This document shows, piece after piece, positions 15,801 through 52,106 of a stretch of 60,913 nucleotides of DNA; the stretch's first letter is position 1, and each line of letters starts with the position of its first letter. The notes under the pieces are model-generated. The model was given only the letters and a program-made list of their open reading frames with translations. It was not told the origin of the DNA and ran no database searches. Location of the stretch: assembly GCA_016210925.1 (NCBI GenBank), contig JACQTF010000179.1, forward strand, positions 1-60,913, in the 5' to 3' direction. The stretch is from Acidobacteriota bacterium. Lineage in GTDB: Bacteria; Acidobacteriota; UBA6911; JACQTF01. The position numbers were made by a program, and so were the translations under genes.

Positions 15801-17834
15801 TTAGCCACTACAAGAGGAATCTGTGGTTTTCAGTTTCTCCACGTCAACCCGCGCATCGTTATAACACGCTCCCCCACCGACCTCGTTGACATCTGCCGGG
15901 CAGAGCGCTGTGGAAGTACGACCGTTCATGGATGATTTCCGCCACGCCCCTTTGGGCAGAGAGACAACGCTTTCCCGAACGCGCTCGCTCACTCTGGCAC
16001 GACAGATGACTTCTCCAAGCCCATTGAACACCCGCACAGTATCTCCCTCAGCAATCCCCCTCGCCGAAGCATCGCGCGGGTGCAACGTGAGCCAGAGCTC
16101 CGGGAAGTTAAACTCACCCAACGTGCTGGTGATCATCTTTGAGGTGGCCGGACTGATCATGGCCAGCGGGAATCCGTCGCTTTTGACCGGACGATAGTGA
16201 AATGGCGACGACCCGAGCGCCGGCGGGGTCAGGTGAATTTTCCCGTCCGGGGTCTGTGGAAAGGCTGTTTTGAACTGTATTGGCGTGGGTCCGGGAAAGT
16301 CATAGGGTTGAGTTTCTCCTGCGGTAAAGATGCCCGCGCTGGCGGGACGGCCATGCAACGTGAGGGCATCAGCCACTTTTTGCATGGAGGTGTGTGTATC
16401 CCAGAAAAACGGTTCATCCTGCCAACCCATGGCGCGTCCTAATGCGGCAAATACCTCGCCATTTGATTTCGCCTCACCGAGGGCCGGAATCACCGGCTGC
16501 ACGCCACCCACCACATAGCTCCCGTAGGCGCGCCGAATGTCCTGATGCTCCAAGAAAGTTGTTGCCGGCAGGAGAATGTCGGCATATTTTGCCGTGTCGG
16601 TCATCACCTGCTCAAATACGACCGTGAACAAGTCTTCTCGTGCCAACCCGCGCAGAATCGCGTTTTGATGGGGCGCGGTGACCGCCGGATTGCAATTGTA
16701 AACGAACAGCCCTTTGATGGGCGGCTGGAGATCGCCGTTGAGCACCTCGCCCAGTTGCGTCATATTGATCATGCGCGTTGGCCAGGCATAGTCGCCAAAG
16801 ATCTTTGTCGTGTCCAATTTTGCCGCCCCGCTGTTGCTCAAGGTGTAGCCACCCCCGCGGACGCCGAACTTCCCCAACAGCGCAGGCATGGCCAGGATAG
16901 CAGCAATGGCTTGACCACCGTTGCGATTTCGCTCCAGCCCCCACCCACACCGGATCACCGCCGGAGTTGATTCGGCGTAGACCTCGGCCAGGATGCGGAT
17001 ATCCTGAGGCGCAACACGTGCTTCTTGGGCAGCCCGCTCCACCGGCCACGCATGAGCCTCCTCCAGCAGGGGTCCAAGACCGTCGGCGTGTTGGCGCAAA
17101 AAATCCCTATCAAGCCGGCCAGCTTCTTTCCAGATGCGGATCATCGCCAGAGCCACTGGTAGGTCGGCGCCAGGGAAAACCGGCACGTGCAGATCGACAT
17201 CGTGAGAAGAGAAATTTTTTAACGGATCCACTACGGCGACAAACGCACCATTCCTCTTGGCCTGGCGTAAAAACGGAACCAGGTGAATATTCGAGACCTT
17301 CGGGTTGGCTCCGCAAATCAGGATGAACTTCGCGTATCGATAGTCTTCAAACGCCACGCCGGGCATTTTGCCGTACATGCCCATCGCCACCTCGGTCGTG
17401 GGTGCAGCGCAAAGGGTTCTGGCCAATCGCGAAGCGCCGAGTCTGGCGAAGTAAAAAGCATCTATCCATCCGTCACTGAGCAGGCCATTGGAGCCGCCAT
17501 AATGATACGGCAAAATGGCTTCGCTACCCCACCCGCGGATGATTTCCCGGAACCGGCTGGTGATCTCAGCCATTGCTTCAACCCAGGAGATGCGCACAAA
17601 TTCTCCAGCCCCTTTCGGGCCACGGCGACGCATGGGATACAGAAGGCGATCCCCATGATAAACTCTCCGGGCGAACCGAGACACTTTATCGCAGATAAAC
17701 CCGTTGGTCGTCGGGTGGTCTTGCGCCCCACCGATGCGTTGAATCCTGCCATCGTCCACGACGACCTCAAGCGCACAGGTATCGGGGCAATCCATGACGC
17801 AGGTTGTGTGGACGATTTTCGCAGTCCTAATCAT
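15801..17834 (-). CDS. cytoplasmic molybdopterin (bis-MGD) oxidoreductase, DMSO-reductase superfamily
   Basis: N-terminal 4Fe-4S motif HTTCVMDCPDTCALEV. No Tat signal. 677 aa with typical MopB and C-terminal molybdopterin dinucleotide-binding regions. Substrate unknown. Confidence 0.85.
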   Translation of the reverse strand: MIRTAKIVHTTCVMDCPDTCALEVVVDDGRIQRIGGAQDHPTTNGFICDKVSRFARRVYHGDRLLYPMRRRGPKGAGEFVRISWVEAMAEITSRFREIIRGWGSEAILPYHYGGSNGLLSDGWIDAFYFARLGASRLARTLCAAPTTEVAMGMYGKMPGVAFEDYRYAKFILICGANPKVSNIHLVPFLRQAKRNGAFVAVVDPLKNFSSHDVDLHVPVFPGADLPVALAMIRIWKEAGRLDRDFLRQHADGLGPLLEEAHAWPVERAAQEARVAPQDIRILAEVYAESTPAVIRCGWGLERNRNGGQAIAAILAMPALLGKFGVRGGGYTLSNSGAAKLDTTKIFGDYAWPTRMINMTQLGEVLNGDLQPPIKGLFVYNCNPAVTAPHQNAILRGLAREDLFTVVFEQVMTDTAKYADILLPATTFLEHQDIRRAYGSYVVGGVQPVIPALGEAKSNGEVFAALGRAMGWQDEPFFWDTHTSMQKVADALTLHGRPASAGIFTAGETQPYDFPGPTPIQFKTAFPQTPDGKIHLTPPALGSSPFHYRPVKSDGFPLAMISPATSKMITSTLGEFNFPELWLTLHPRDASARGIAEGDTVRVFNGLGEVICRARVSERVRESVVSLPKGAWRKSSMNGRTSTALCPADVNEVGGGACYNDARVDVEKLKTTDSSCSG

Positions 17835-32401: not shown

Positions 32402-34738
32402 CTACCCAGCTTCCCTGCGACTCTTCGCATCTTGCTTGGTAGGTGCGGGGCAACTCTCTCTGCCGTGACGCGCGTCTCTGAGAGCGCGCCAGACCCGCTC
32501 CGGCAGCAGGGGAACGCGACGGAGGCGAACGCCTGTCGCACGGTAGAGGGCGTTGACCAGTGCGGAGGAGATCGGGTTGAGGGATCCTTCGCCGCCCCCT
32601 TTTGCCCCGTACGGCCCCACCCCGTCCTGGTTCTCAGTCAAGGCCAGGTGCAGCTCCTCCGGCAGGTCCGAGAAACGAGGCACCCGGTAGTCCAGCAGCG
32701 AATTATTCACCAGTTGCTCGCCGTCGTAGATCAGCTCCTCGTACAGCCCGATGCCCATGCCCATGGTGGCGGCGCCCAAGTCCTGGCCCTCCGCCAGCGC
32801 GGGGTTGATGGCCAGGCCCACGTCTCCCACGACGGCCAGCTTTTCCAGGTGGACCCGCCCCGTCTCTTCGTCCACCGATACCTGCACTCCCAGGCAACCG
32901 AGCTCCCAGAACACCGGCAACTGGGAAAGGTCACCCGCCTTGCGGAGATAGGCCCGCCCCAACACTTCCCCATCGGGCAGGCCGAAATAGCGGGCGAGGA
33001 CTTGAGACCAATCCAGGCGGTCCGCCCCGCGCTGGACGCCCCCCCGCATCAGAGTCACCTCTTCCACCGGGCACCGCAAGACGTCCGCCGCCATCGCGCG
33101 CATCTGTGAGACGGCATCCTGGCACGCTTCCAACACCGCGCGGCCCATCAGCGTCGTGGTGCGGCTGGCGCCGGTGGAACGATCGAAGGGAGTGATGGCG
33201 GTATCCGAACCGACGACCCGCACTTTCTCGAAGGGGACGCCGATCTCCTCGGCGGCGATCTGGGCCACAATGGTATGGCTTCCCTGCCCCAGCTCGGTGC
33301 TGCCCGTGAGCACCGACACCGATCCATCGCCGTGGACCCGGACCGCCGCGGACGTCACCGGGTACGCCCCGGCGTCGCTGGCCGTGCAACCCACCGCCCG
33401 CCCCTTCCCCTTCGGGAGCGGCTTGTCCCAACCCAGGAGGTCCGCCACTTTCTTCAGATCGCTCTTCAGGTCTCCATCCAGCGGACGACTTTTCGGGAAG
33501 AAGACCTCGCCCCGTTCCGCCACGTTCGCCAGACGAAACGCCAAGGGATCCTGGCCGATCTTTTCCGCAATCTCGTCGATCTGGGACTCCGCCGCCAGCG
33601 TCACCTGGGCGGATCCAAAGCCGCGGAAGGAGCTGGCCGGCGCCGTGTTGGTGTAGACGCCATAGCAGTCGATGCGCGCATTCGGAATCCGGTAGGGCCC
33701 CGCCGCCCGGTTGGCCGCCTTCTCGCAGACCAGCGGGCTGTTTTCCGCGTAGGCTCCCGTGTTCAGATAGATGGTGGCCTGACGCGCCAGCAACTTGCCC
33801 TGGGCGTCCACGGCGGTCCGCTCGCGAACCAGCGCATCATCGCTCCGGGTGGTGAGCACGGCCTCCTCGACGCTGAGCTGCAGCTTGACCGGCCTGCGTG
33901 CCTTCCAGGCGCACGCCGCGGTAAGGGGCTCGATCTTGGTGTAGGACTTGCTCCCGTAGCCACCCCCCACGAACGGCACCACCAGACGAACCTTGCTCAC
34001 AGGAAGGTTGAACACGCCCGCCACGTCGTGGCGCACAATGAACGGGTGCTGGCAGGACGAATAGCAGGTCACGCCGCTTTCATTGACCTCCGCCACGCAC
34101 ACGTACGGCTCCATCGCGTACGCGTAGGCCATGGGATAGTAGTACTCCCCTTCCACGACGGCGGCAGCCTCCGCGAAAGCTTTGTCCGCATCGCCCCAGG
34201 TCACGTGGGCTTCCTGGCAGATATTGGTCCCGCGACCGGCCGACACATCGGCCTCGAAGCCCCGAAACCCTCCCGCAGCGAAAGTGCGCTCGTGGAGGAT
34301 CGGTGCTCCCTTCGCCAGCGCCTGCTCCACAGACAGGACCGCCGGCATCTCCTCGTATTGCACTGTAATGTGGTCCAGCGCTTGGAAGGCGGTGCGCTCG
34401 TCCACCGCCACCACCGCCACCACCGGTTCGCCCACGTAACGGACCTTCCCCATGGCCAGCACCGGGTGGTCCTTGACCGCATGGCCGTAATAAGGGTTCA
34501 AGCCCTCCAAACGATCCCCCGTCAGGACTGCGAACACGCCCGGCTGGGCCTCGGCCTCGCCGACCTTGATGGACAGGATCCGGGCGTGAGCATAAGGGCT
34601 GCGCAGCAGCTTCGCGTACGCCATGCCCGGGAGCACCACATCGCTGGCATATTTGGCCTGGCCCGTGACCTTGGCCACCCCGTCCCCTCGCGGCACCGAA
34701 TGGTTGACGACGTAAAACTCTCGCTTCTTCTCGCTCAT
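32402..34738 (-). CDS. molybdenum hydroxylase large (MoCo-binding) subunit, xanthine dehydrogenase/aldehyde oxidase family
   Basis: Start ATG 34738 overlaps the small-subunit TGA (ATGA). VAKVTGQAKYASD, GGGYGSK and SSFRGFG motifs. No AYxCSFR CO-dehydrogenase signature was seen. Confidence 0.92.
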   Translation of the reverse strand: MSEKKREFYVVNHSVPRGDGVAKVTGQAKYASDVVLPGMAYAKLLRSPYAHARILSIKVGEAEAQPGVFAVLTGDRLEGLNPYYGHAVKDHPVLAMGKVRYVGEPVVAVVAVDERTAFQALDHITVQYEEMPAVLSVEQALAKGAPILHERTFAAGGFRGFEADVSAGRGTNICQEAHVTWGDADKAFAEAAAVVEGEYYYPMAYAYAMEPYVCVAEVNESGVTCYSSCQHPFIVRHDVAGVFNLPVSKVRLVVPFVGGGYGSKSYTKIEPLTAACAWKARRPVKLQLSVEEAVLTTRSDDALVRERTAVDAQGKLLARQATIYLNTGAYAENSPLVCEKAANRAAGPYRIPNARIDCYGVYTNTAPASSFRGFGSAQVTLAAESQIDEIAEKIGQDPLAFRLANVAERGEVFFPKSRPLDGDLKSDLKKVADLLGWDKPLPKGKGRAVGCTASDAGAYPVTSAAVRVHGDGSVSVLTGSTELGQGSHTIVAQIAAEEIGVPFEKVRVVGSDTAITPFDRSTGASRTTTLMGRAVLEACQDAVSQMRAMAADVLRCPVEEVTLMRGGVQRGADRLDWSQVLARYFGLPDGEVLGRAYLRKAGDLSQLPVFWELGCLGVQVSVDEETGRVHLEKLAVVGDVGLAINPALAEGQDLGAATMGMGIGLYEELIYDGEQLVNNSLLDYRVPRFSDLPEELHLALTENQDGVGPYGAKGGGEGSLNPISSALVNALYRATGVRLRRVPLLPERVWRALRDARHGRESCPAPTKQDAKSRREAG

Positions 34739-35229
34739 GACCGACTCCTGAGCGCCTGAGCCGCCTTCTGGATGGCATGGACGATAGGCAGGTAGCCCGT
34801 GCATCGGCAGATGTTCCCGTCCATGGAGGCGCGAATTTCCTCTTCAGTGGGGAGCGGCCGCTCCTCCAGCAGGGCCCGGGCGGCCAGGATCATGCCGGGG
34901 GTGCAAAACCCGCACTGAAACGCCGACTCGTCCACGAAAGCCTGCTGCAAGGGATGCAGCGTCCCGTCCGGGGCAGCCAGACCTTCGATGGTCAGAACCT
35001 TTTTGTTCCGGGCCTCGTACGCCAGAAACGTACAGGCGCTCACCGGCAGGCCGTCCACCAGCACCGTGCAGGCTCCGCAGACCTGCACCTCGCACGAGAC
35101 TTTCGTTCCCGTCAGGTTCAGCCGGTTTCGCAGGACCTCCGCCAGACTCTCCTGCGGTTCGATCTCCAGTTCCACCGCGCGGCCGTTGACCTCGAAACTC
35201 AAGGGAAAAAGTGGGATTCCTTCGCTCAT
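34735..35229 (-). CDS. molybdenum hydroxylase [2Fe-2S] small subunit, CoxS-like
   Basis: 164 aa with CEVQVCGACTV and CGFCTPG cluster motifs. Confidence 0.92.
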   Translation of the reverse strand: MSEGIPLFPLSFEVNGRAVELEIEPQESLAEVLRNRLNLTGTKVSCEVQVCGACTVLVDGLPVSACTFLAYEARNKKVLTIEGLAAPDGTLHPLQQAFVDESAFQCGFCTPGMILAARALLEERPLPTEEEIRASMDGNICRCTGYLPIVHAIQKAAQALRSRS

Positions 35230-49198: not shown

Positions 49199-49330
49199 CT
49201 ACAGCGTAATGACCTGATCCACACCCACCTTGCCCAGCGCCGCGTAAAGATCGGGAAAACAGCCGATTTGTGCCCCATCAATGAGATTCTTATCTATTTC
49301 TCGCTCGTAAGCGCACTGGTCACAAGCCAT
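49199..49330 (-). CDS. 43-codon CxxC mini-ORF with glutaredoxin-like ends
   Basis: MACDQCAYEREIDKNLIDGAQIGCFPDLYAALGKVGVDQVITL. CDQC and LIDGAQIGCFPDLYAAL resemble the Grx CPYC and FIxGxxIGGxDDLxAL motifs, but the middle is missing. Overlaps the IscU-like stop by 11 nt. Confidence 0.3.
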   Translation of the reverse strand: MACDQCAYEREIDKNLIDGAQIGCFPDLYAALGKVGVDQVITL

Positions 49331-49637
49331 AGCAGTGCATCTTCTCGGGCGGAATCGTGCCGAGAGCGTCGGAAAGCTCTTGCTCCGTCACGGACAGAGC
49401 ATCTTCCACGTCCTTGCCTTGGACCATTTCCGTGAGCGCGCTGGAACACGCCACGGAGGTGATGCAACCCTGTGTTTTGAATTTCACCTCCTGAATCCGG
49501 CCGTCTTCCACGCTCAAGGTGAGGAGGATGCGGATACTCCAGGGATTGTCTTGCTCCAGGTAAGAGCGGTTGGGCTGATCGACAACTCCAAGATTGCGTG
49601 GATGATGGAAATGGTCCAAAACGGGGCTGCGGAACAT
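49320..49637 (-). CDS. IscU/NifU N-terminal-like protein (atypical, first Cys ligand absent)
   Basis: MFRSPVLDHFHHPRNLGVV..., FKTQGCITSVACSSALTEMVQGK and PPEKMHC match IscU motifs. The NPxCGD motif reads NPWSIR. Confidence 0.7.
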   Translation of the reverse strand: MFRSPVLDHFHHPRNLGVVDQPNRSYLEQDNPWSIRILLTLSVEDGRIQEVKFKTQGCITSVACSSALTEMVQGKDVEDALSVTEQELSDALGTIPPEKMHCYGL

Positions 49638-49719
49638 TCCAACATCACCGGTGGGCGTCGCAGTCTACTTAGGGTTTCCGCACCCCGACCCTAAGCCTTC
49701 CCCGATTCCTATCCGCATC

Positions 49720-50196
49720 TCACCGTTTCGGAATCTTGAATTCCGCCACCTTCAGTTCAAGCGGATCGCCGGAATCATCGATGGTGCCAAGGATCCAGAT
49801 CGGATGGCCCGAGGGGACCTTTGGAGAATCTACCAGGAGAAGCTTATCCTTGCCGGCAACGAAGAATCGCTTCGATCCCTCTTCCTGGACACGCCCGCGG
49901 GCGGCAATTTGGAACCGGACAATCTCAACCTCCGCTCTTGCCACGGCAGCGCGAATGTCCTCCGGTTGGAAGCTGGTTCCCGGCTCATAGGTGATCTGCA
50001 CGGTCTGCTTTTGCAGGCTAATGGAAACATCGGCGACACCGTCCAGGCGTCGTAGGGCGACCTCCATGATCGCCGCGCAGGCCGCTCAGGTGATTCCTCT
50101 TGCATCGGCCAGCACCCTTTCCACCTGAGCCAGTGCCGGTGTGCTCGCCGCCGGTGCCAGTAGGGCCAGAAGTAACAACCGCGTCAGGCGCTTCAT
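49720..50196 (-). CDS. periplasmic HMA/MerP-like protein with TGA at the first Cys of the CxxC metal site (candidate selenoprotein)
   Basis: ATG 50196: MKRLTRLLLLALLAPAASTPALAQVERVLADARGIT-TGA-AACAAIMEVALRRLDGVADVSISLQKQTVQITYEPG... The TGA is at 50086..50088. The ORF track sees only 49720..50067. Confidence 0.7.
50056..50074 (-). promoter_or_regulatory. SECIS-like hairpin downstream of the HMA-protein TGA
   Basis: RNA GGCGAU-CAUGGAG-GUCGCC has a 6-bp stem (one G-U pair) and a 7-nt loop with GG. It starts 11 nt after the UGA. Confidence 0.4.
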
Positions 50197-50233: not shown

Positions 50234-50554
50234 TTAACGATAGCGGAACCAAAGCGTCATCCACGCGCTGAGAACCAACAGGTTTACCCCAATGCTCGCC
50301 CCCAGAATTGCCTTCATGCCCCTGGTCCGAAGAGAGGGAGGACGGCGATAGACGAGCGAACCCTGGTAGGCGAGTGCGCCCAGCGCTACCCCGATAAACA
50401 CCGGCTGCAAACGTTCCAGCCAGAAGAGGCAAGTGACGTTGAGGAGCGAAAAGAGGCCAAGTCCTGCCAGGACTTGCGGAAGCACTCATCAGCTCGGCGT
50501 GAGGAGGGCAGCCGCAATCGCCAGCAGTCCCATGCGTTTCGGATCCGATTTCAT
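50234..50554 (-). CDS. MerT-like membrane protein with tandem in-frame TGA-TGA at the vicinal Cys-Cys position (candidate di-selenocysteine protein)
   Basis: ATG 50554: MKSDPKRMGLLAIAAALLTPS-TGA-TGA-VLPQVLAGLGLFSLL...LERLQPVFIGVALGALAYQGSLVYRR... TGA codons are at 50489..50491 and 50486..50488. The ORF track sees only 50234..50485. Confidence 0.7.
50458..50476 (-). promoter_or_regulatory. SECIS-like hairpin downstream of the MerT-like TGA-TGA
   Basis: RNA CAAGUCC-UGGCA-GGACUUG has a perfect 7-bp stem and a 5-nt loop containing GG. It starts 9 nt after the second UGA. Confidence 0.5.
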
Positions 50555-50594
50555 GTGACCCGACTACCACTATACGGACCGGCCACTCCACCTG

Positions 50595-52106
50595 TCAAGG
50601 CTGGTTACGCTGGTTGACCATCCGGAACGCGGCTTTTACCCGGGGAACGACGAAGGGTAGAAGGATCAGAACGAGCGCCGAGAGGAGAAAGGCGCCCGAG
50701 AGGGGGCGCCAGAGAAAGATCATCAGGCTTCCCCGGGAGAGCAGGAGGGACTGCCGGAGGGATTCCTCCGCCATGCGGCCCAGGACGAAAGCCAGCAGGA
50801 GGGGGACCGGGTCGTACTGGAACTTTTTCATGAGGTAGCCCACCACGCCGAAGGCCAGCATGGTGATGATGTCCCAGATGTTGCCCGACACGCTGTAAGC
50901 GCCGATGACGCAAAACAGCAGGATCAACGGGAAAAGAATGCCGTAGGGAACCTTGAGGAGCTGGACCCATAGTCCGATCAGGGGGAGGTTCAGGACCAGG
51001 AGCATGGCGTTGCCGACGTACATGCTGGTGATGACGCCCCAGAAGATCTCCGGATGCTCCTTCATCAAGAGGGGGCCCGGCTGAACCCCGTGAACCAGAA
51101 AGGCTCCCAGCAGCACGGCCATGACCACGTTGGGGGGAATGCCCAGGGTCAGCAGCGGGATCATGGATCCTGCCGTGGCGGCGTTGTTGGCCGATTCCGG
51201 CCCGGCGACTCCCTCGATGGCGCCCGCGCCGAACTTCTCGGGGTGTTTGGAGATGCGCCGCTCGACCCCGTAGGAGATGAAGGACGGGATGATCGTGCCC
51301 ATCCCGGGGAGGATTCCCAGAAAGAAGCCCAACAGGCTTCCCCGGGCGACGGGGCCGGCGGAATCCTTCCAGTCCTGCCGGGTGGGCAGCAGGCCTTTGA
51401 TCCGGGTCTCGAAGACTCCCTGCTGGAGGCCTTGCTCGATGTTGAGGAGGACCTCTGCGACGCCGAACAGGCCCATGATGAGAGGCACCAGCCCCAACCC
51501 GTCCATCAGCGTGACACTGCGGAACGTGAAGCGCGGTGTGCCCACGATGGGGTCCAGCCCGACGGTGCCCAGAAACAACCCCAGAATGGCCATGGCCGCG
51601 GCCTTGAGCTTCGAGCCGCGCGCCAGGAAGGTCACCATGGTGAAACCCAGTATCAGGAGGCCGAAGATCTCCGGAGGCCCGAATCGGAGGGCGATGGAGG
51701 CGAGGGGAGGCGCCAGCAACATGATTCCCACCACGCCGAAGGTCCCGGCGATGAAGGAGCCGAAGGCTGCAATCCCAAGGGCCGGGCCCGCCCGGCCCCG
51801 GCGCGCCATCTGGTGACCATCCAGACACGTCACGACGGAAGCAGCCTCGCCGGGGACGTTGACCAGGATGGAGGTGGTGGAACCTCCGTACATGGCCCCG
51901 TAGTAGATGCCCGCCAGCATGATGAGGGAGGTGGTGGCGCTCATCGTGTAGGTGACCGGAAAGAGGAGGGACATGGTCACCACAGACCCGATGCCGGGCA
52001 GGACGCCCACCAGCGTTCCGATCAAGACGCCCGCGAAGCACGCCGCCAGGTTGGTAGGCTCTAGGCTCACGGAAAAGCCGTAAAGTACGCTCTGGACGAG
52101 GTCCAT
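50595..52106 (-). CDS. tctA: tripartite tricarboxylate transporter large permease TctA
   Basis: About 500-aa polytopic protein, [20 protein letters not shown]... Start trimmed to ATG 52106, downstream of the tctB stop. The same-strand overlapping 478-aa ORF is an artefact. Confidence 0.9.

What the first reader, a model, noticed from the sequence alone, without database searches (positions are those of the whole stretch)
49720..50196. Signal-peptide HMA/MerP-like protein with TGA replacing the first Cys of the GMTCxxC metal-binding motif
Seen in sequence: minus-strand translation from ATG 50196 gives MKRLTRLLLLALLAPAASTPALAQVERVLADARGIT, then TGA (50086..50088), then AACAAIMEVALRRLDGVADVSISLQKQTVQITYEPGTSFQPEDIRAAVARAEVEIV...
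Established knowledge: heavy-metal-associated domains, including periplasmic MerP, carry G-M-T-C-x-x-C-x-x-x-(I/V)-E-x-A-L...GV at the start of helix 1.
Here the pattern is G-I-T-[TGA]-A-A-C-A-A-I-M-E-V-A-L-R-R-L-D-G-V. This makes a UxxC site if the TGA is decoded as selenocysteine.
The ORF track starts the gene at the internal Met just after the motif, which would delete both the signal peptide and the metal site.
Eleven nt after the TGA lies the hairpin GGCGAU-CAUGGAG-GUCGCC, with GG in the loop. As I recall it, the E. coli fdhF SECIS also starts 11 nt after the UGA.
The gene begins 37 nt downstream of the MerT-like gene, reproducing the merT-merP order.
Basis: partly seen in the sequence, partly recalled or inferred. 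Interest (0 to 1): 0.88.

Follow-up and report, generated by a model that had tools for sequence, protein, structure and literature searches.

The report
Secreted metal-binding selenoprotein gene, mis-annotated
This gene almost certainly encodes an exported heavy-metal-binding protein in which one of the two metal-holding cysteines is replaced by selenocysteine (encoded by an in-frame TGA), so gene callers cut the protein short; the protein family is not in curated selenoprotein lists, but selenium at this type of metal site is already known.

Summary
The minus-strand ORF 50196..49720 reads signal peptide, then GIT-[TGA]-AAC-AAIMEVAL, then the rest of an HMA domain, then an unassigned beta module.

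Across 102 related loci the same column is TGA in 62 and TGC/TGT in 40. The frame upstream of the TGA evolves like coding sequence. Every TGA form is annotated in databases as a ~115-aa stump starting at the internal Met.

A 7-bp hairpin starts 11 nt after the UGA. It pairs fully in 29 of 34 distinct TGA forms and reaches at most 5 of 7 pairs in any Cys form. TGA is an ordinary stop elsewhere in the window, including for this gene.

The upstream MerT-like gene has a tandem TGATGA at MerT's Cys-Cys position in every locus where it was found (no CC form among 136 homologues), with its own SECIS-like hairpin.

I read this as a real selenoprotein gene: a periplasmic U-x-x-C metal-binding protein working with a U-U membrane partner.

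Three things remain unproven: Sec machinery (none in the window), strict fit to the consensus bacterial SECIS, and which metal is bound. It is not a MerP by curated score. Sec in HMA sites is known, so this is a new member of a known kind.

The parts
50569..50598 (-). Promoter-like site TTGACA-18 nt-TATAGT upstream of the two-gene unit
   Evidence: 11 of 12 consensus matches. The -35, the -10 and much of the spacer are conserved in most Sec-form loci.
50234..50554 (-). MerT-like partner gene: 106 codons plus stop, about 3 TM segments, with tandem in-frame TGATGA
   Evidence: Pfam MerT scores 27.4 bits, below the 32.9 cut-off, when UU is written as CC. The reading frame is conserved on both sides of TGATGA in 69 loci.
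50486..50491 (-). Tandem UGA-UGA (putative Sec-Sec) at the position of MerT's TM1 Cys-Cys
   Evidence: TGATGA occurs in all 69 loci where the partner was found by motif search, and in L019/L022 found by tblastn. That includes 23 loci whose HMA gene has Cys. No CC form appears among 136 homologues; two 'WW' entries are code-4 translations of the same codons.
50458..50476 (-). SECIS-like hairpin of the partner gene: CAAGUCCU-GGC-AGGACUUG
   Evidence: It is near-invariant in 42 distinct sequences and starts 12 nt after UGA1 and 9 nt after UGA2. The UGA-to-loop distances are 20 and 17 nt, and the loop fits the N1-G-G-N-N2 pattern. L019 and L022 carry a compensatory A-U to C-G change.
49720..50196 (-). 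Full-length HMA selenoprotein gene (158 codons including UGA-37; terminal stop TGA)
50128..50196 (-). Signal peptide, residues 1-23 (MKRLTR / LLLLALLAPAA / STPALA, then QV)
   Evidence: It has a basic n-region, a hydrophobic core and an A-x-A cleavage motif. Q24-V25 are invariant in the 13-sequence family alignment. The modelled N-terminal helix has low confidence, as signal peptides usually do. No SignalP run was possible, so this is by inspection.
50086..50088 (-). In-frame UGA, putative Sec-37, first ligand of the metal site
   Evidence: It aligns to the first Cys of GMTCxxC in solved HMA domains and to Cys in 40 related loci.
50077..50079 (-). Cys-40 codon (TGC), second ligand of the U-x-x-C site
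   Evidence: Invariant column in the 13-sequence family alignment.
50056..50074 (-). Hairpin 1 (GGCGAUC-AUGGA-GGUCGCC), the best SECIS candidate, 11 nt after the UGA
   Evidence: All 7 pairs form in 29 of 34 distinct Sec forms, against at most 5 in 31 Cys forms. Mean local MFE is -9.8 versus -1.9 kcal/mol. In the alignment 93% of cells are paired, and the IMEV/VMEI swap keeps pairing. Codon choice is better than synonymous resampling at P<=0.03 in 11 of 12 lineages.
50034..50052 (-). Hairpin 2 (CGACGCC-UGGAC-GGUGUCG), a second conserved stem-loop that may be part of an extended SECIS
   Evidence: 6-7 of 7 pairs form in 33 of 34 Sec forms, against mostly 3-4 in Cys forms. The loop has G at position 2, but the UGA-to-loop distance is 40 nt, outside the 16-37 nt consensus range.
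49927..50127 (-). HMA (ferredoxin-like beta-alpha-beta-beta-alpha-beta) metal-binding domain, mature residues 24-90
   Evidence: Pfam HMA 2.3e-9. The model of Cys homologue P0003 superposes on Atx1, CopZ, the ZntA N-terminal domain and MerP at TM 0.77-0.86.
49723..49926 (-). C-terminal five-stranded all-beta module (residues 91-158), no family assignment
   Evidence: It is confidently modelled and has only weak OB-fold-like matches. It is rare: 43 representative clusters among 1.84 billion proteins, almost all from this same family.
49320..49637 (-). NifU_N-like gene immediately downstream; possible third operon member (uncertain)
   Evidence: Pfam NifU_N 3.3e-27. The same arrangement occurs in L008, followed by a DsrE-like gene.

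Best explanation
The gene at 50196..49720 (minus strand) encodes a 158-residue exported selenoprotein. A Sec-pathway signal peptide (cleaved after Ala23) is followed by an HMA-fold metal-binding domain. Its canonical G-M-T-C-x-x-C site reads G-I-T-U-A-A-C, so the first ligand is selenocysteine encoded by UGA-37. A small family-specific beta module follows.

SelB/tRNA-Sec would decode the UGA, directed by the stem-loop that begins 11 nt downstream, possibly helped by a second conserved stem-loop. The same gene's terminal UGA has no such element and terminates normally.

The gene is co-transcribed from a conserved promoter with an upstream MerT-like three-helix membrane protein. That partner carries an apparently obligate Sec-Sec pair where MerT has its Cys-Cys pair.

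By analogy with MerP and MerT, the periplasmic U-x-x-C site captures a thiophilic metal ion (Hg(II), Cu(I), Ag(I) or Cd(II) are candidates) and hands it to the U-U pair in the membrane for transfer inward.

What is shown: the conserved in-frame UGA, its alignment to Cys, coding conservation upstream, a hairpin specific to UGA forms, the HMA fold, and the gene pairing.

What is inferred: actual Sec insertion, export, the identity of the metal, and the direction of transfer.
For: - Cys/Sec pairing. The TGA column is TGA in 62 loci and TGC/TGT in 40. Full-length Cys homologues read S-C-G-V-C-A there. P0058 reads GIT-C-PSCAA, with flanks almost identical to the Sec forms.
- Coding conservation upstream. 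All ten Sec-form sequences inspected directly (nine fetched loci plus the window) keep signal peptide + AQVxKVxADAKGIT in frame before the TGA. Pairwise differences at codon positions 1/2/3 are 0.16/0.17/0.46 upstream, against 0.21/0.16/0.42 downstream.
- Domain integrity. HMA scores 37.9 bits across the TGA but only 24.9 bits for the annotated stump. The TGA aligns to the first Cys of GMTCAACAA in B. subtilis CopA. The fold model has pLDDT 88.8 and matches Atx1, CopZ and MerP.
- RNA element. Hairpin 1 pairs fully in 29 of 34 Sec forms and never in Cys forms. 92% of cells are paired, against 28-58% when partners are slid. Synonymous-codon resampling gives P<=0.03 in 11 of 12 lineages. The 11-nt spacing matches E. 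coli fdhF.
- TGA is not reassigned. It ends 11 of 26 long ORFs in the window and ends this gene too.
- Stable trait. A single U/C change explains the neighbour-joining tree.
- Partner gene. It has a conserved TGATGA and its own consensus-fitting hairpin.
- Transcription. The promoter is conserved.
- Mis-annotation. Database entries for Sec forms are all truncated to ~115 aa.
Against: - No selA, selB, selD or tRNA-Sec lies in the 61-kb window, so Sec competence of this organism is unproven.
- Hairpin 1 has its G residues at loop positions 3-4 rather than 1-2. Hairpin 2 is 40 nt from the UGA rather than 37 nt or less. Neither satisfies all four consensus bSECIS criteria.
- No Rfam SECIS model matches, even permissively.
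- The single-sequence folding z-score is only -0.91.
- Much of hairpin 1's pairing potential is fixed by the amino-acid sequence AA[IV]ME[VI]A (5.0-5.5 of 7 pairs expected), so per-lineage pair-count P values are only 0.04-0.11.
- The functional model rests on analogy. MerP and MerT scores are below their curated cut-offs. No MerA was found among the 20 large ORFs scanned, and MerR was not searched for. Some homologues (the L007/L020 group, L058, L017 and others) lack the MerT-like partner.
Confidence: 0.82

Rival explanations
1. The UGA is read through or recoded, but the U-x-x-C site works as a redox centre (a selenylsulfide/selenol couple) rather than a metal ligand. For example, it could act in a periplasm-to-membrane reductive relay for sulfur, selenium or tellurium species, feeding the neighbouring NifU-like and DsrE-like proteins.
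For: UxxC is the commonest motif of redox selenoproteins in the published family tables. A NifU_N-like gene follows the HMA gene in the window and in L008, where a DsrE-like gene comes next. No MerA was found among the 20 large ORFs scanned.
Against: The fold and local sequence are those of metal-binding HMA domains, not thioredoxin-like folds. The conserved partner resembles the metal transporter MerT at its metal-binding CC position. The NifU/DsrE neighbours are present in only a few loci.
Confidence: 0.1
2. The UGA is decoded by near-cognate read-through (Trp, Cys or Arg) without the Sec machinery, and the downstream hairpins merely stimulate read-through.
For: Sec machinery was not found in the window. 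The hairpins do not fully match the bSECIS consensus or any Rfam SECIS model.
Against: The UGA alternates only with Cys codons at a metal-ligand position, which is the signature of Sec. The partner gene has two adjacent UGAs, and simple read-through would be very inefficient there. Its hairpin fits the bSECIS pattern and spacing. The 11-nt spacing of hairpin 1 equals that of fdhF.
Confidence: 0.05
3. The TGA is a true stop. The real gene is the annotated 115-aa ORF starting at Met44, and the upstream 36 codons are a separate small ORF or non-coding leader.
For: This is what automated gene calling gives and how all database homologues are annotated.
Against: The stump would lack strand 1, the metal loop and half of helix 1 of the HMA fold, and would have no signal peptide. 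Upstream codons show coding-type conservation in the same frame in ten divergent Sec-form sequences. Full-length Cys forms exist. No Shine-Dalgarno-like sequence precedes Met44.
Confidence: 0.02
4. The TGA is an artefact: a pseudogene, a sequencing error, or a lineage-wide reassignment of TGA.
For: Two JGI entries translate the partner's TGATGA as WW, showing that some pipelines assumed genetic code 4.
Against: 34 distinct sequences from independent assemblies share the TGA. TGA terminates 11 of 26 long ORFs in the window, and this gene too. The TGA aligns only with Cys, never with Trp or Gly.
Confidence: 0.01

Closest known systems
MerP / MerT of bacterial mer operons (TIGR02052; PF02411)
   Same: Both have an exported HMA-fold protein with a two-ligand x-x motif at the start of helix 1. 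In both it is encoded directly after a small membrane protein that carries an adjacent ligand pair in its first transmembrane helix. The merT-then-merP gene order is the same.
   Different: Both proteins score below the curated cut-offs: MerP 39.5 against 92.55 bits, and MerT 27.4 against 32.9 bits. The ligands are U-x-x-C and U-U instead of C-x-x-C and C-C. The HMA protein has an extra ~68-residue beta module. No MerA was found among the large ORFs scanned and MerR was not searched for, so mercury detoxification is not the evident purpose.
NF041115 'UxxU_metal_bind' metal-binding (seleno)protein (the 'putative mercuric reductase' of the Olavius symbiont study)
   Same: It is a stand-alone HMA-like protein with Sec at the metal site, and it is the best NCBIfam hit (8.9e-12).
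   Different: The score is 45 bits against a cut-off of 95. That family has two Sec residues (UxxU), is 74 residues long, and has no beta module. The window's protein has UxxC.
Cation-transporting P-type ATPase selenoprotein (E1-E2 family, UxxC; ABB15669.1)
   Same: It has the same UxxC motif. The tables list only the motif; that it lies in the ATPase's HMA metal-binding domain is my inference. It shows that this exact substitution is already documented.
   Different: There the site is part of a large cytoplasmic ATPase. Here it is in a small secreted protein with a different partner.
MerT-type selenoproteins (PF02411, motif C/SxxU or CU; NF045683 MerT/CopZ fusion-like selenoprotein)
   Same: These also place Sec in MerT/CopZ-type heavy-metal handling proteins. 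The combination of a MerT part and a CopZ/HMA part is the same.
   Different: NF045683 is a single fused protein. Scores here are 19.5 and 17.1 bits against a cut-off of 375. The listed MerT selenoproteins have one Sec, whereas this partner has an apparently obligate adjacent UU.
CopZ / Atx1 copper metallochaperones
   Same: These are the best structural matches to the HMA domain (TM 0.77-0.86, rmsd about 2 Å).
   Different: They are cytoplasmic, single-domain, all-Cys proteins.

Membership tests
Bacterial selenoprotein gene (UGA recoded as Sec) | In-frame UGA that aligns with Cys in homologues (a Cys/Sec pair) | tested here: met
   62 loci have TGA and 40 have TGC/TGT at one column. See also the alignments, and P0058 GIT-C-PSCAA.
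Bacterial selenoprotein gene (UGA recoded as Sec) | Protein-coding conservation on both sides of the UGA in several species | tested here: met
   Codon-position differences are 0.16/0.17/0.46 upstream.
Bacterial selenoprotein gene (UGA recoded as Sec) | Downstream bSECIS fitting the consensus model: loop 3-9 nt, stem 4-16 bp, G in the first two loop positions, 16-37 nt from UGA to loop, MFE <= -7.5 kcal/mol (PMC13188914) | tested here: inconclusive
   Hairpin 1 has a 7-bp stem, a 5-nt loop, 18-nt spacing and MFE -11.3, but the loop is AUGGA with G at positions 3-4. Hairpin 2 has loop UGGAC, which is acceptable, but 40-nt spacing. No Rfam SECIS model matches.
Bacterial selenoprotein gene (UGA recoded as Sec) | The RNA structure is present in UGA forms and absent from Cys forms | tested here: met
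   29 of 34 Sec forms pair fully, against none of 31 Cys forms. Mean MFE is -9.8 versus -1.9 kcal/mol.
Bacterial selenoprotein gene (UGA recoded as Sec) | selA, selB, selC (tRNA-Sec) and selD present in the same genome | not testable with these tools
   None is in the window.
Bacterial selenoprotein gene (UGA recoded as Sec) | Selenium demonstrated in the protein | not testable with these tools
   This needs 75Se labelling or mass spectrometry.
HMA domain (PF00403) | Score at or above the Pfam gathering threshold | tested here: met
   37.9 bits against 24.8, with U written as C.
HMA domain (PF00403) | Beta-alpha-beta-beta-alpha-beta ferredoxin-like fold | tested here: met
   The model of Cys-form homologue P0003 has pLDDT 88.8 and TM 0.77-0.86 to Atx1, CopZ and MerP. 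The window protein itself could not be submitted.
HMA domain (PF00403) | Two-ligand C-x-x-C motif at the loop 1 / helix 1 junction | tested here: met
   It is present as U-x-x-C and aligns to GMTCAAC of CopA.
MerP (TIGR02052) | Score at or above the curated cut-off (92.55 bits) | tested here: not met
   39.5 bits.
MerP (TIGR02052) | N-terminal signal peptide (periplasmic location) | tested here: inconclusive
   A typical n/h/c-region with an A-x-A site is seen by inspection and is conserved. No signal-peptide predictor was available.
MerP (TIGR02052) | Single-domain mature protein of about 72 residues | tested here: not met
   The mature protein is about 135 residues and has an additional beta module.
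MerP (TIGR02052) | Encoded in a mer operon with merR, merT and merA | tested here: not met
   Only a sub-threshold MerT-like gene is present. No MerA was found among the 20 large ORFs scanned. MerR was not searched for.
NF041115 UxxU_metal_bind | Score at or above the cut-off (95 bits), and a UxxU motif | tested here: not met
   45 bits, and the motif is UxxC.
NF045683 MerT/CopZ fusion-like selenoprotein | Score at or above the cut-off (375 bits), and one fused polypeptide | tested here: not met
   19.5 and 17.1 bits, and two separate genes 37 nt apart.

The most novel reading that the evidence does not exclude
The two genes form a previously undescribed, soil-wide 'three-selenol' metal relay. 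A secreted U-x-x-C HMA protein with a private beta module passes a thiophilic ion to an apparently obligate adjacent Sec-Sec pair inside the first helix of a mini-MerT. The system is run from its own conserved promoter and is not tied to mercury detoxification (no MerA was found among the large ORFs scanned; MerR was not searched for).

The partner would be a natural protein whose function strictly needs two consecutive selenocysteines, since no CC form exists among 136 homologues. The HMA component, in contrast, can switch between U and C. That would point to selenium-specific chemistry in membrane metal transfer, such as very high-affinity scavenging or fast ligand exchange at low pH, rather than simple Cys replacement.
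Probability: 0.35. Interest if true: 0.72.

Novelty: new member of a known kind. Interest (0 to 1): 0.55.

Why it matters
- **Annotation.** Every Sec-form member of this family in a 5.8-billion-cluster protein database is truncated to a ~115-aa stump without its signal peptide or metal site. Its partner is called as an 83-aa fragment. Curated selenoprotein models, reviews and the BSepDB family set do not list either protein.
- **Biology.** The pair adds a secreted HMA selenoprotein and an adjacent-UU membrane protein to the small set of selenoproteins where Sec is a metal ligand rather than a redox catalyst. It occurs in abundant soil lineages (MAGs labelled Acidobacteria/Terriglobia, Deltaproteobacteria and Verrucomicrobiia), where selenium use is little studied.
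- **A natural experiment.** The HMA gene exists in Sec and Cys versions with the same UU partner. This makes the question of what Sec buys at a metal site directly testable by swapping one codon.

Tried and rejected
- tRNA/tmRNA scan and Rfam at gathering thresholds over the whole window found nothing. A permissive Rfam scan of the operon gave one chance hit and no SECIS model.
- NCBIfam scans of 20 large window ORFs for SelA, SelB, SelD or MerA found none.
- The single-sequence folding z-score for the 61 nt after the UGA was not significant (-0.91), so I relied on the Sec-versus-Cys comparison and codon resampling instead.
- RNAalifold on its own recovered only part of hairpin 1. The full 7-bp helix was then tested by explicit pair counting.
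- I asked whether the NifU-like ORF's terminal TGA might also be Sec. It aligns with Val in the L008 homologue, not Cys, so it is probably a real stop.
- The long proteins that hit the C-terminal module (P0049, P0056, P0065) turned out to be Ig-like or low-complexity repeats and gave no functional clue.
- The 'WW' full-length partner homologues are code-4 translations of TGATGA, not real Trp forms.
- The Haft & Tolstoy 2025 paper (PMC12013261) is not held, and BSepDB supplements are not held. I therefore cannot exclude that this family appears in their supplementary material.
- A global TGA reassignment was rejected on stop-codon usage.
Full report
**1. The observation**

Reading the minus strand confirms every sequence statement in the finding.
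- ATG lies at 50196..50194, an in-frame TGA at 50088..50086, and the terminal stop (also TGA) at 49722..49720.
- The translation is MKRLTRLLLLALLAPAASTPALAQVERVLADARGIT*AACAAIMEVALRRLDGV...
- The mechanical ORF list begins the gene at the internal Met (49720..50067, 115 aa).
- The stem-loop GGCGAUC-AUGGA-GGUCGCC (50074..50056) begins 11 nt after the UGA.
- The upstream MerT-like gene stops at 50236..50234, 37 nt before the ATG.

**2. Is the full-length reading frame real?**

With Sec written as Cys, the Pfam HMA model aligns across the TGA (residues 33-87, 37.9 bits, cut-off 24.8). The annotated stump only just reaches threshold at 24.9 bits. Against solved structures, the TGA falls on the first Cys of GMTCxxC; B. 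subtilis CopA reads GMTCAACAA.

A search of 5.8 billion protein clusters returned two length classes.
- Proteins of about 160 aa cover the whole query and read S-C-G-V-C-A at the site.
- Proteins of about 115 aa all start at MEVALRRLDGV.

I fetched the DNA for the short class. All nine fetched Sec-form loci, like the window itself, have an in-frame TGA at the same position, preceded by a conserved signal peptide and AQVxKVxADAKGIT.

Scans of genome and metagenome collections added 92 loci. Over all 102 classifiable loci the column is TGA in 62, TGC in 33 and TGT in 7.

The 14 codons before the TGA differ between Sec-form sequences at rates of 0.16/0.17/0.46 for codon positions 1/2/3. This is the same coding signature as the undisputed downstream region, 0.21/0.16/0.42.

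TGA terminates 11 of 26 long ORFs in the window, and this gene itself, so the codon is not reassigned.

On a neighbour-joining tree of 76 distinct mature proteins, one U/C change explains the distribution. The representative-library search later found Cys forms with Sec-type flanks, such as P0058 with GIT-C-PSCAA.

**3. The RNA element**

Two stem-loops follow the UGA in the Sec forms. Hairpin 1 starts 11 nt downstream and hairpin 2 starts 33 nt downstream.
- **Specificity to UGA forms.** Hairpin 1 forms all 7 pairs in 29 of 34 distinct Sec-form sequences, but at most 5 in any of the 31 distinct Cys-form sequences. Mean local MFE is -9.8 versus -1.9 kcal/mol.
- **Pair counting.** 92% of cells are paired, against 28-58% when partners are slid. 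Four pairs show changes on both sides. A recurrent IMEV/VMEI codon swap converts A-U/U-G into G-U/U-A.
- **Control for protein sequence.** The Sec and Cys clades differ in amino-acid sequence here, so I resampled synonymous codons with each protein held fixed. The observed codons fold better than resampled ones (MFE P<=0.03) in 11 of 12 divergent lineages. However, 5.0-5.5 of the 7 pairs are already dictated by the amino-acid sequence.
- **Fit to the published bSECIS consensus (PMC13188914).** Hairpin 1 meets the stem, loop-length, spacing (18 nt) and energy criteria, but its G residues sit at loop positions 3-4. Hairpin 2 has G at position 2 but lies 40 nt from the UGA. The fit is therefore partial.
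- **Other RNA checks.** No Rfam SECIS model matches. The single-sequence z-score is not significant.

**4. The protein**

A model of a natural Cys-form homologue, built with the family alignment (pLDDT 88.8), shows three parts: an N-terminal signal helix, a canonical beta-alpha-beta-beta-alpha-beta HMA fold, and a five-stranded all-beta C-terminal module.
- The HMA part superposes on Atx1, CopZ, the ZntA N-terminal domain and MerP (TM 0.77-0.86). The C-terminal part gives only weak OB-fold-like matches.
- The C-terminal module is rare and essentially private to this family: 43 representative clusters among 1.84 billion proteins.
- The signal peptide has a basic n-region, a hydrophobic core and an A-L-A cleavage site followed by the invariant Q-V. 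It is judged by inspection only.

**5. Context**

- **Partner gene.** The upstream gene (50554..50234) resembles MerT (27.4 bits, cut-off 32.9). At MerT's TM1 Cys-Cys position it carries a tandem TGATGA (50491..50486).
- **Conservation of UU.** TGATGA occurs in all 69 loci where the motif search found the partner, and in L019/L022 found by tblastn. That includes 23 loci whose HMA gene has Cys. Of the 120 best partner homologues listed (136 hits in all), nearly all are annotated as 83-aa fragments starting just after TGATGA. No CC form appears. Two 'WW' entries are code-4 translations of the same codons.
- **Partner hairpin.** A near-invariant hairpin, CAAGUCCU-GGC-AGGACUUG (50476..50458), follows. 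Its UGA-to-loop distances are 20 and 17 nt and its loop fits the consensus pattern. Two lineages carry a compensatory change.
- **Promoter.** A near-consensus promoter (50598..50569) precedes the pair and is conserved, spacer included, in most Sec-form loci.
- **Neighbours.** Only the MerT-like gene is a consistent neighbour. Some HMA genes stand alone. A NifU_N-like gene follows in the window and in L008.
- **What is absent.** No SelA, SelB, SelD, tRNA-Sec or MerA is in the window.

**6. Most likely mechanism**

*Shown:* a conserved UGA at a metal-ligand Cys position of an HMA domain, coding conservation on both sides, a hairpin at fdhF-like spacing that is specific to UGA forms, and conserved pairing with a UGA-UGA membrane protein.

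*Inferred:* SelB-dependent insertion of Sec at U37, export and cleavage after Ala23, capture of a thiophilic metal by the selenolate/thiolate pair, and hand-over to the U-U pair of the membrane partner, by analogy with MerP and MerT. No MerA was found among the large ORFs scanned, and MerR was not searched for. The purpose is therefore more likely acquisition or handling of a soft metal than classical mercury detoxification. The metal is unknown.

*Rivals:* a redox (selenylsulfide) role, Sec-independent read-through, a true stop, and an artefact. These are scored in the report sections.

**7. Comparison with what is known**

The 2022 and 2026 reviews of prokaryotic selenoproteins list three related families:
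- a MerT-type selenoprotein (C/SxxU, one Sec);
- a P-type ATPase with UxxC;
- the UxxU metal-binding protein NF041115.

Haft and Gwadz mention MerT-family selenoproteins with a CU motif. NCBIfam also holds a MerT/CopZ fusion-like selenoprotein, NF045683.

The window's proteins score far below all these cut-offs, and none of the listed families has this architecture or an adjacent UU. I could not read Haft & Tolstoy 2025 or the BSepDB supplements, so prior description in supplementary lists cannot be excluded.

**8. Verdict**

This is a real, systematically mis-annotated selenoprotein gene. Its kind, Sec replacing a Cys ligand in HMA/MerT-type metal proteins, is already known. The family and its two-gene, three-Sec arrangement appear to be new members of that kind.

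Confidence that the UGA is decoded as Sec in a full-length secreted HMA protein is about 0.8. Confidence in the MerP-to-MerT-style relay is about 0.5. Interest is moderate at 0.55.

Noticed in passing
window 50486-50491 (minus), within gene 50554-50234: The MerT-like partner has a tandem TGATGA (putative Sec-Sec) at MerT's Cys-Cys position. It occurs in every locus where the partner was found, including lineages whose HMA gene uses Cys. No CC form exists among 136 homologues. Databases annotate the gene as an 83-aa fragment starting at the GTG right after TGATGA.
   Followed up: yes
window 50569-50598 (minus): A near-consensus promoter TTGACA-18-TATAGT precedes the gene pair. The -35, the -10 and most of the spacer (TTGACAGTCGGAACAGCCGGCTCGTATA) are conserved across Sec-form loci. 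This hints at a regulator site inside the spacer, although no regulator gene is adjacent.
   Followed up: partly
window 50458-50476 (minus) and the following ~10 nt: The partner's SECIS-like hairpin is followed by a U-rich tract, and the terminator scan flagged it. It might double as an attenuator when Sec decoding stalls, but this is purely speculative.
   Followed up: no
window 49320-49637 (minus); L008 1952-2422 and 2419-2757: A NifU_N-like gene lies directly after the HMA gene. It lacks the first IscU Cys (NPWSIRI where IscU has NPxCGD). The same arrangement occurs in L008, followed by a DsrE-like gene. Its terminal TGA aligns with Val in L008, so it is probably a real stop.
   Followed up: partly
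window 49668-49695 (minus): An 8-bp inverted repeat, CTTAGGGT...ACCCTAAG, lies between the HMA stop codon and the NifU-like gene. It has no T-run after it.
   Followed up: no
L001 2215-5198; L005 2248-5174: In many Sec-form loci a divergently oriented cluster sits upstream of the MerT-like gene: an NHL/SGL beta-propeller protein (~452 aa), an unknown ~240-aa protein and a SAM methyltransferase (~224 aa). One conserved ORF cluster from this region recurs in 21 loci. The cluster is absent from the window, where TctCBA precedes the pair instead.
   Followed up: partly
L007 1838-3969; L009, L020, L095: A divergent Sec-form subclade (G-D/E-F-U-A-S-C, or G-Q-L-U-G-P-C in L020) lacks the MerT-like partner. 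In L007 it is preceded by a radical SAM / B12-binding-domain gene.
   Followed up: no
P0068, P0142 (JGI proteins): Two database entries translate the partner's TGATGA as Trp-Trp, meaning the source pipeline applied genetic code 4 to those contigs. This is an annotation artefact that could mislead homology-based calls.
   Followed up: yes
window 15804-17834 (minus); 32405-34804 (minus): The window holds a molybdopterin oxidoreductase of the DMSO reductase / formate dehydrogenase superfamily and a xanthine-dehydrogenase / 4-hydroxybenzoyl-CoA-reductase-like large subunit. Both families have Sec- or Se-dependent members. Neither was examined for in-frame TGA.
   Followed up: no
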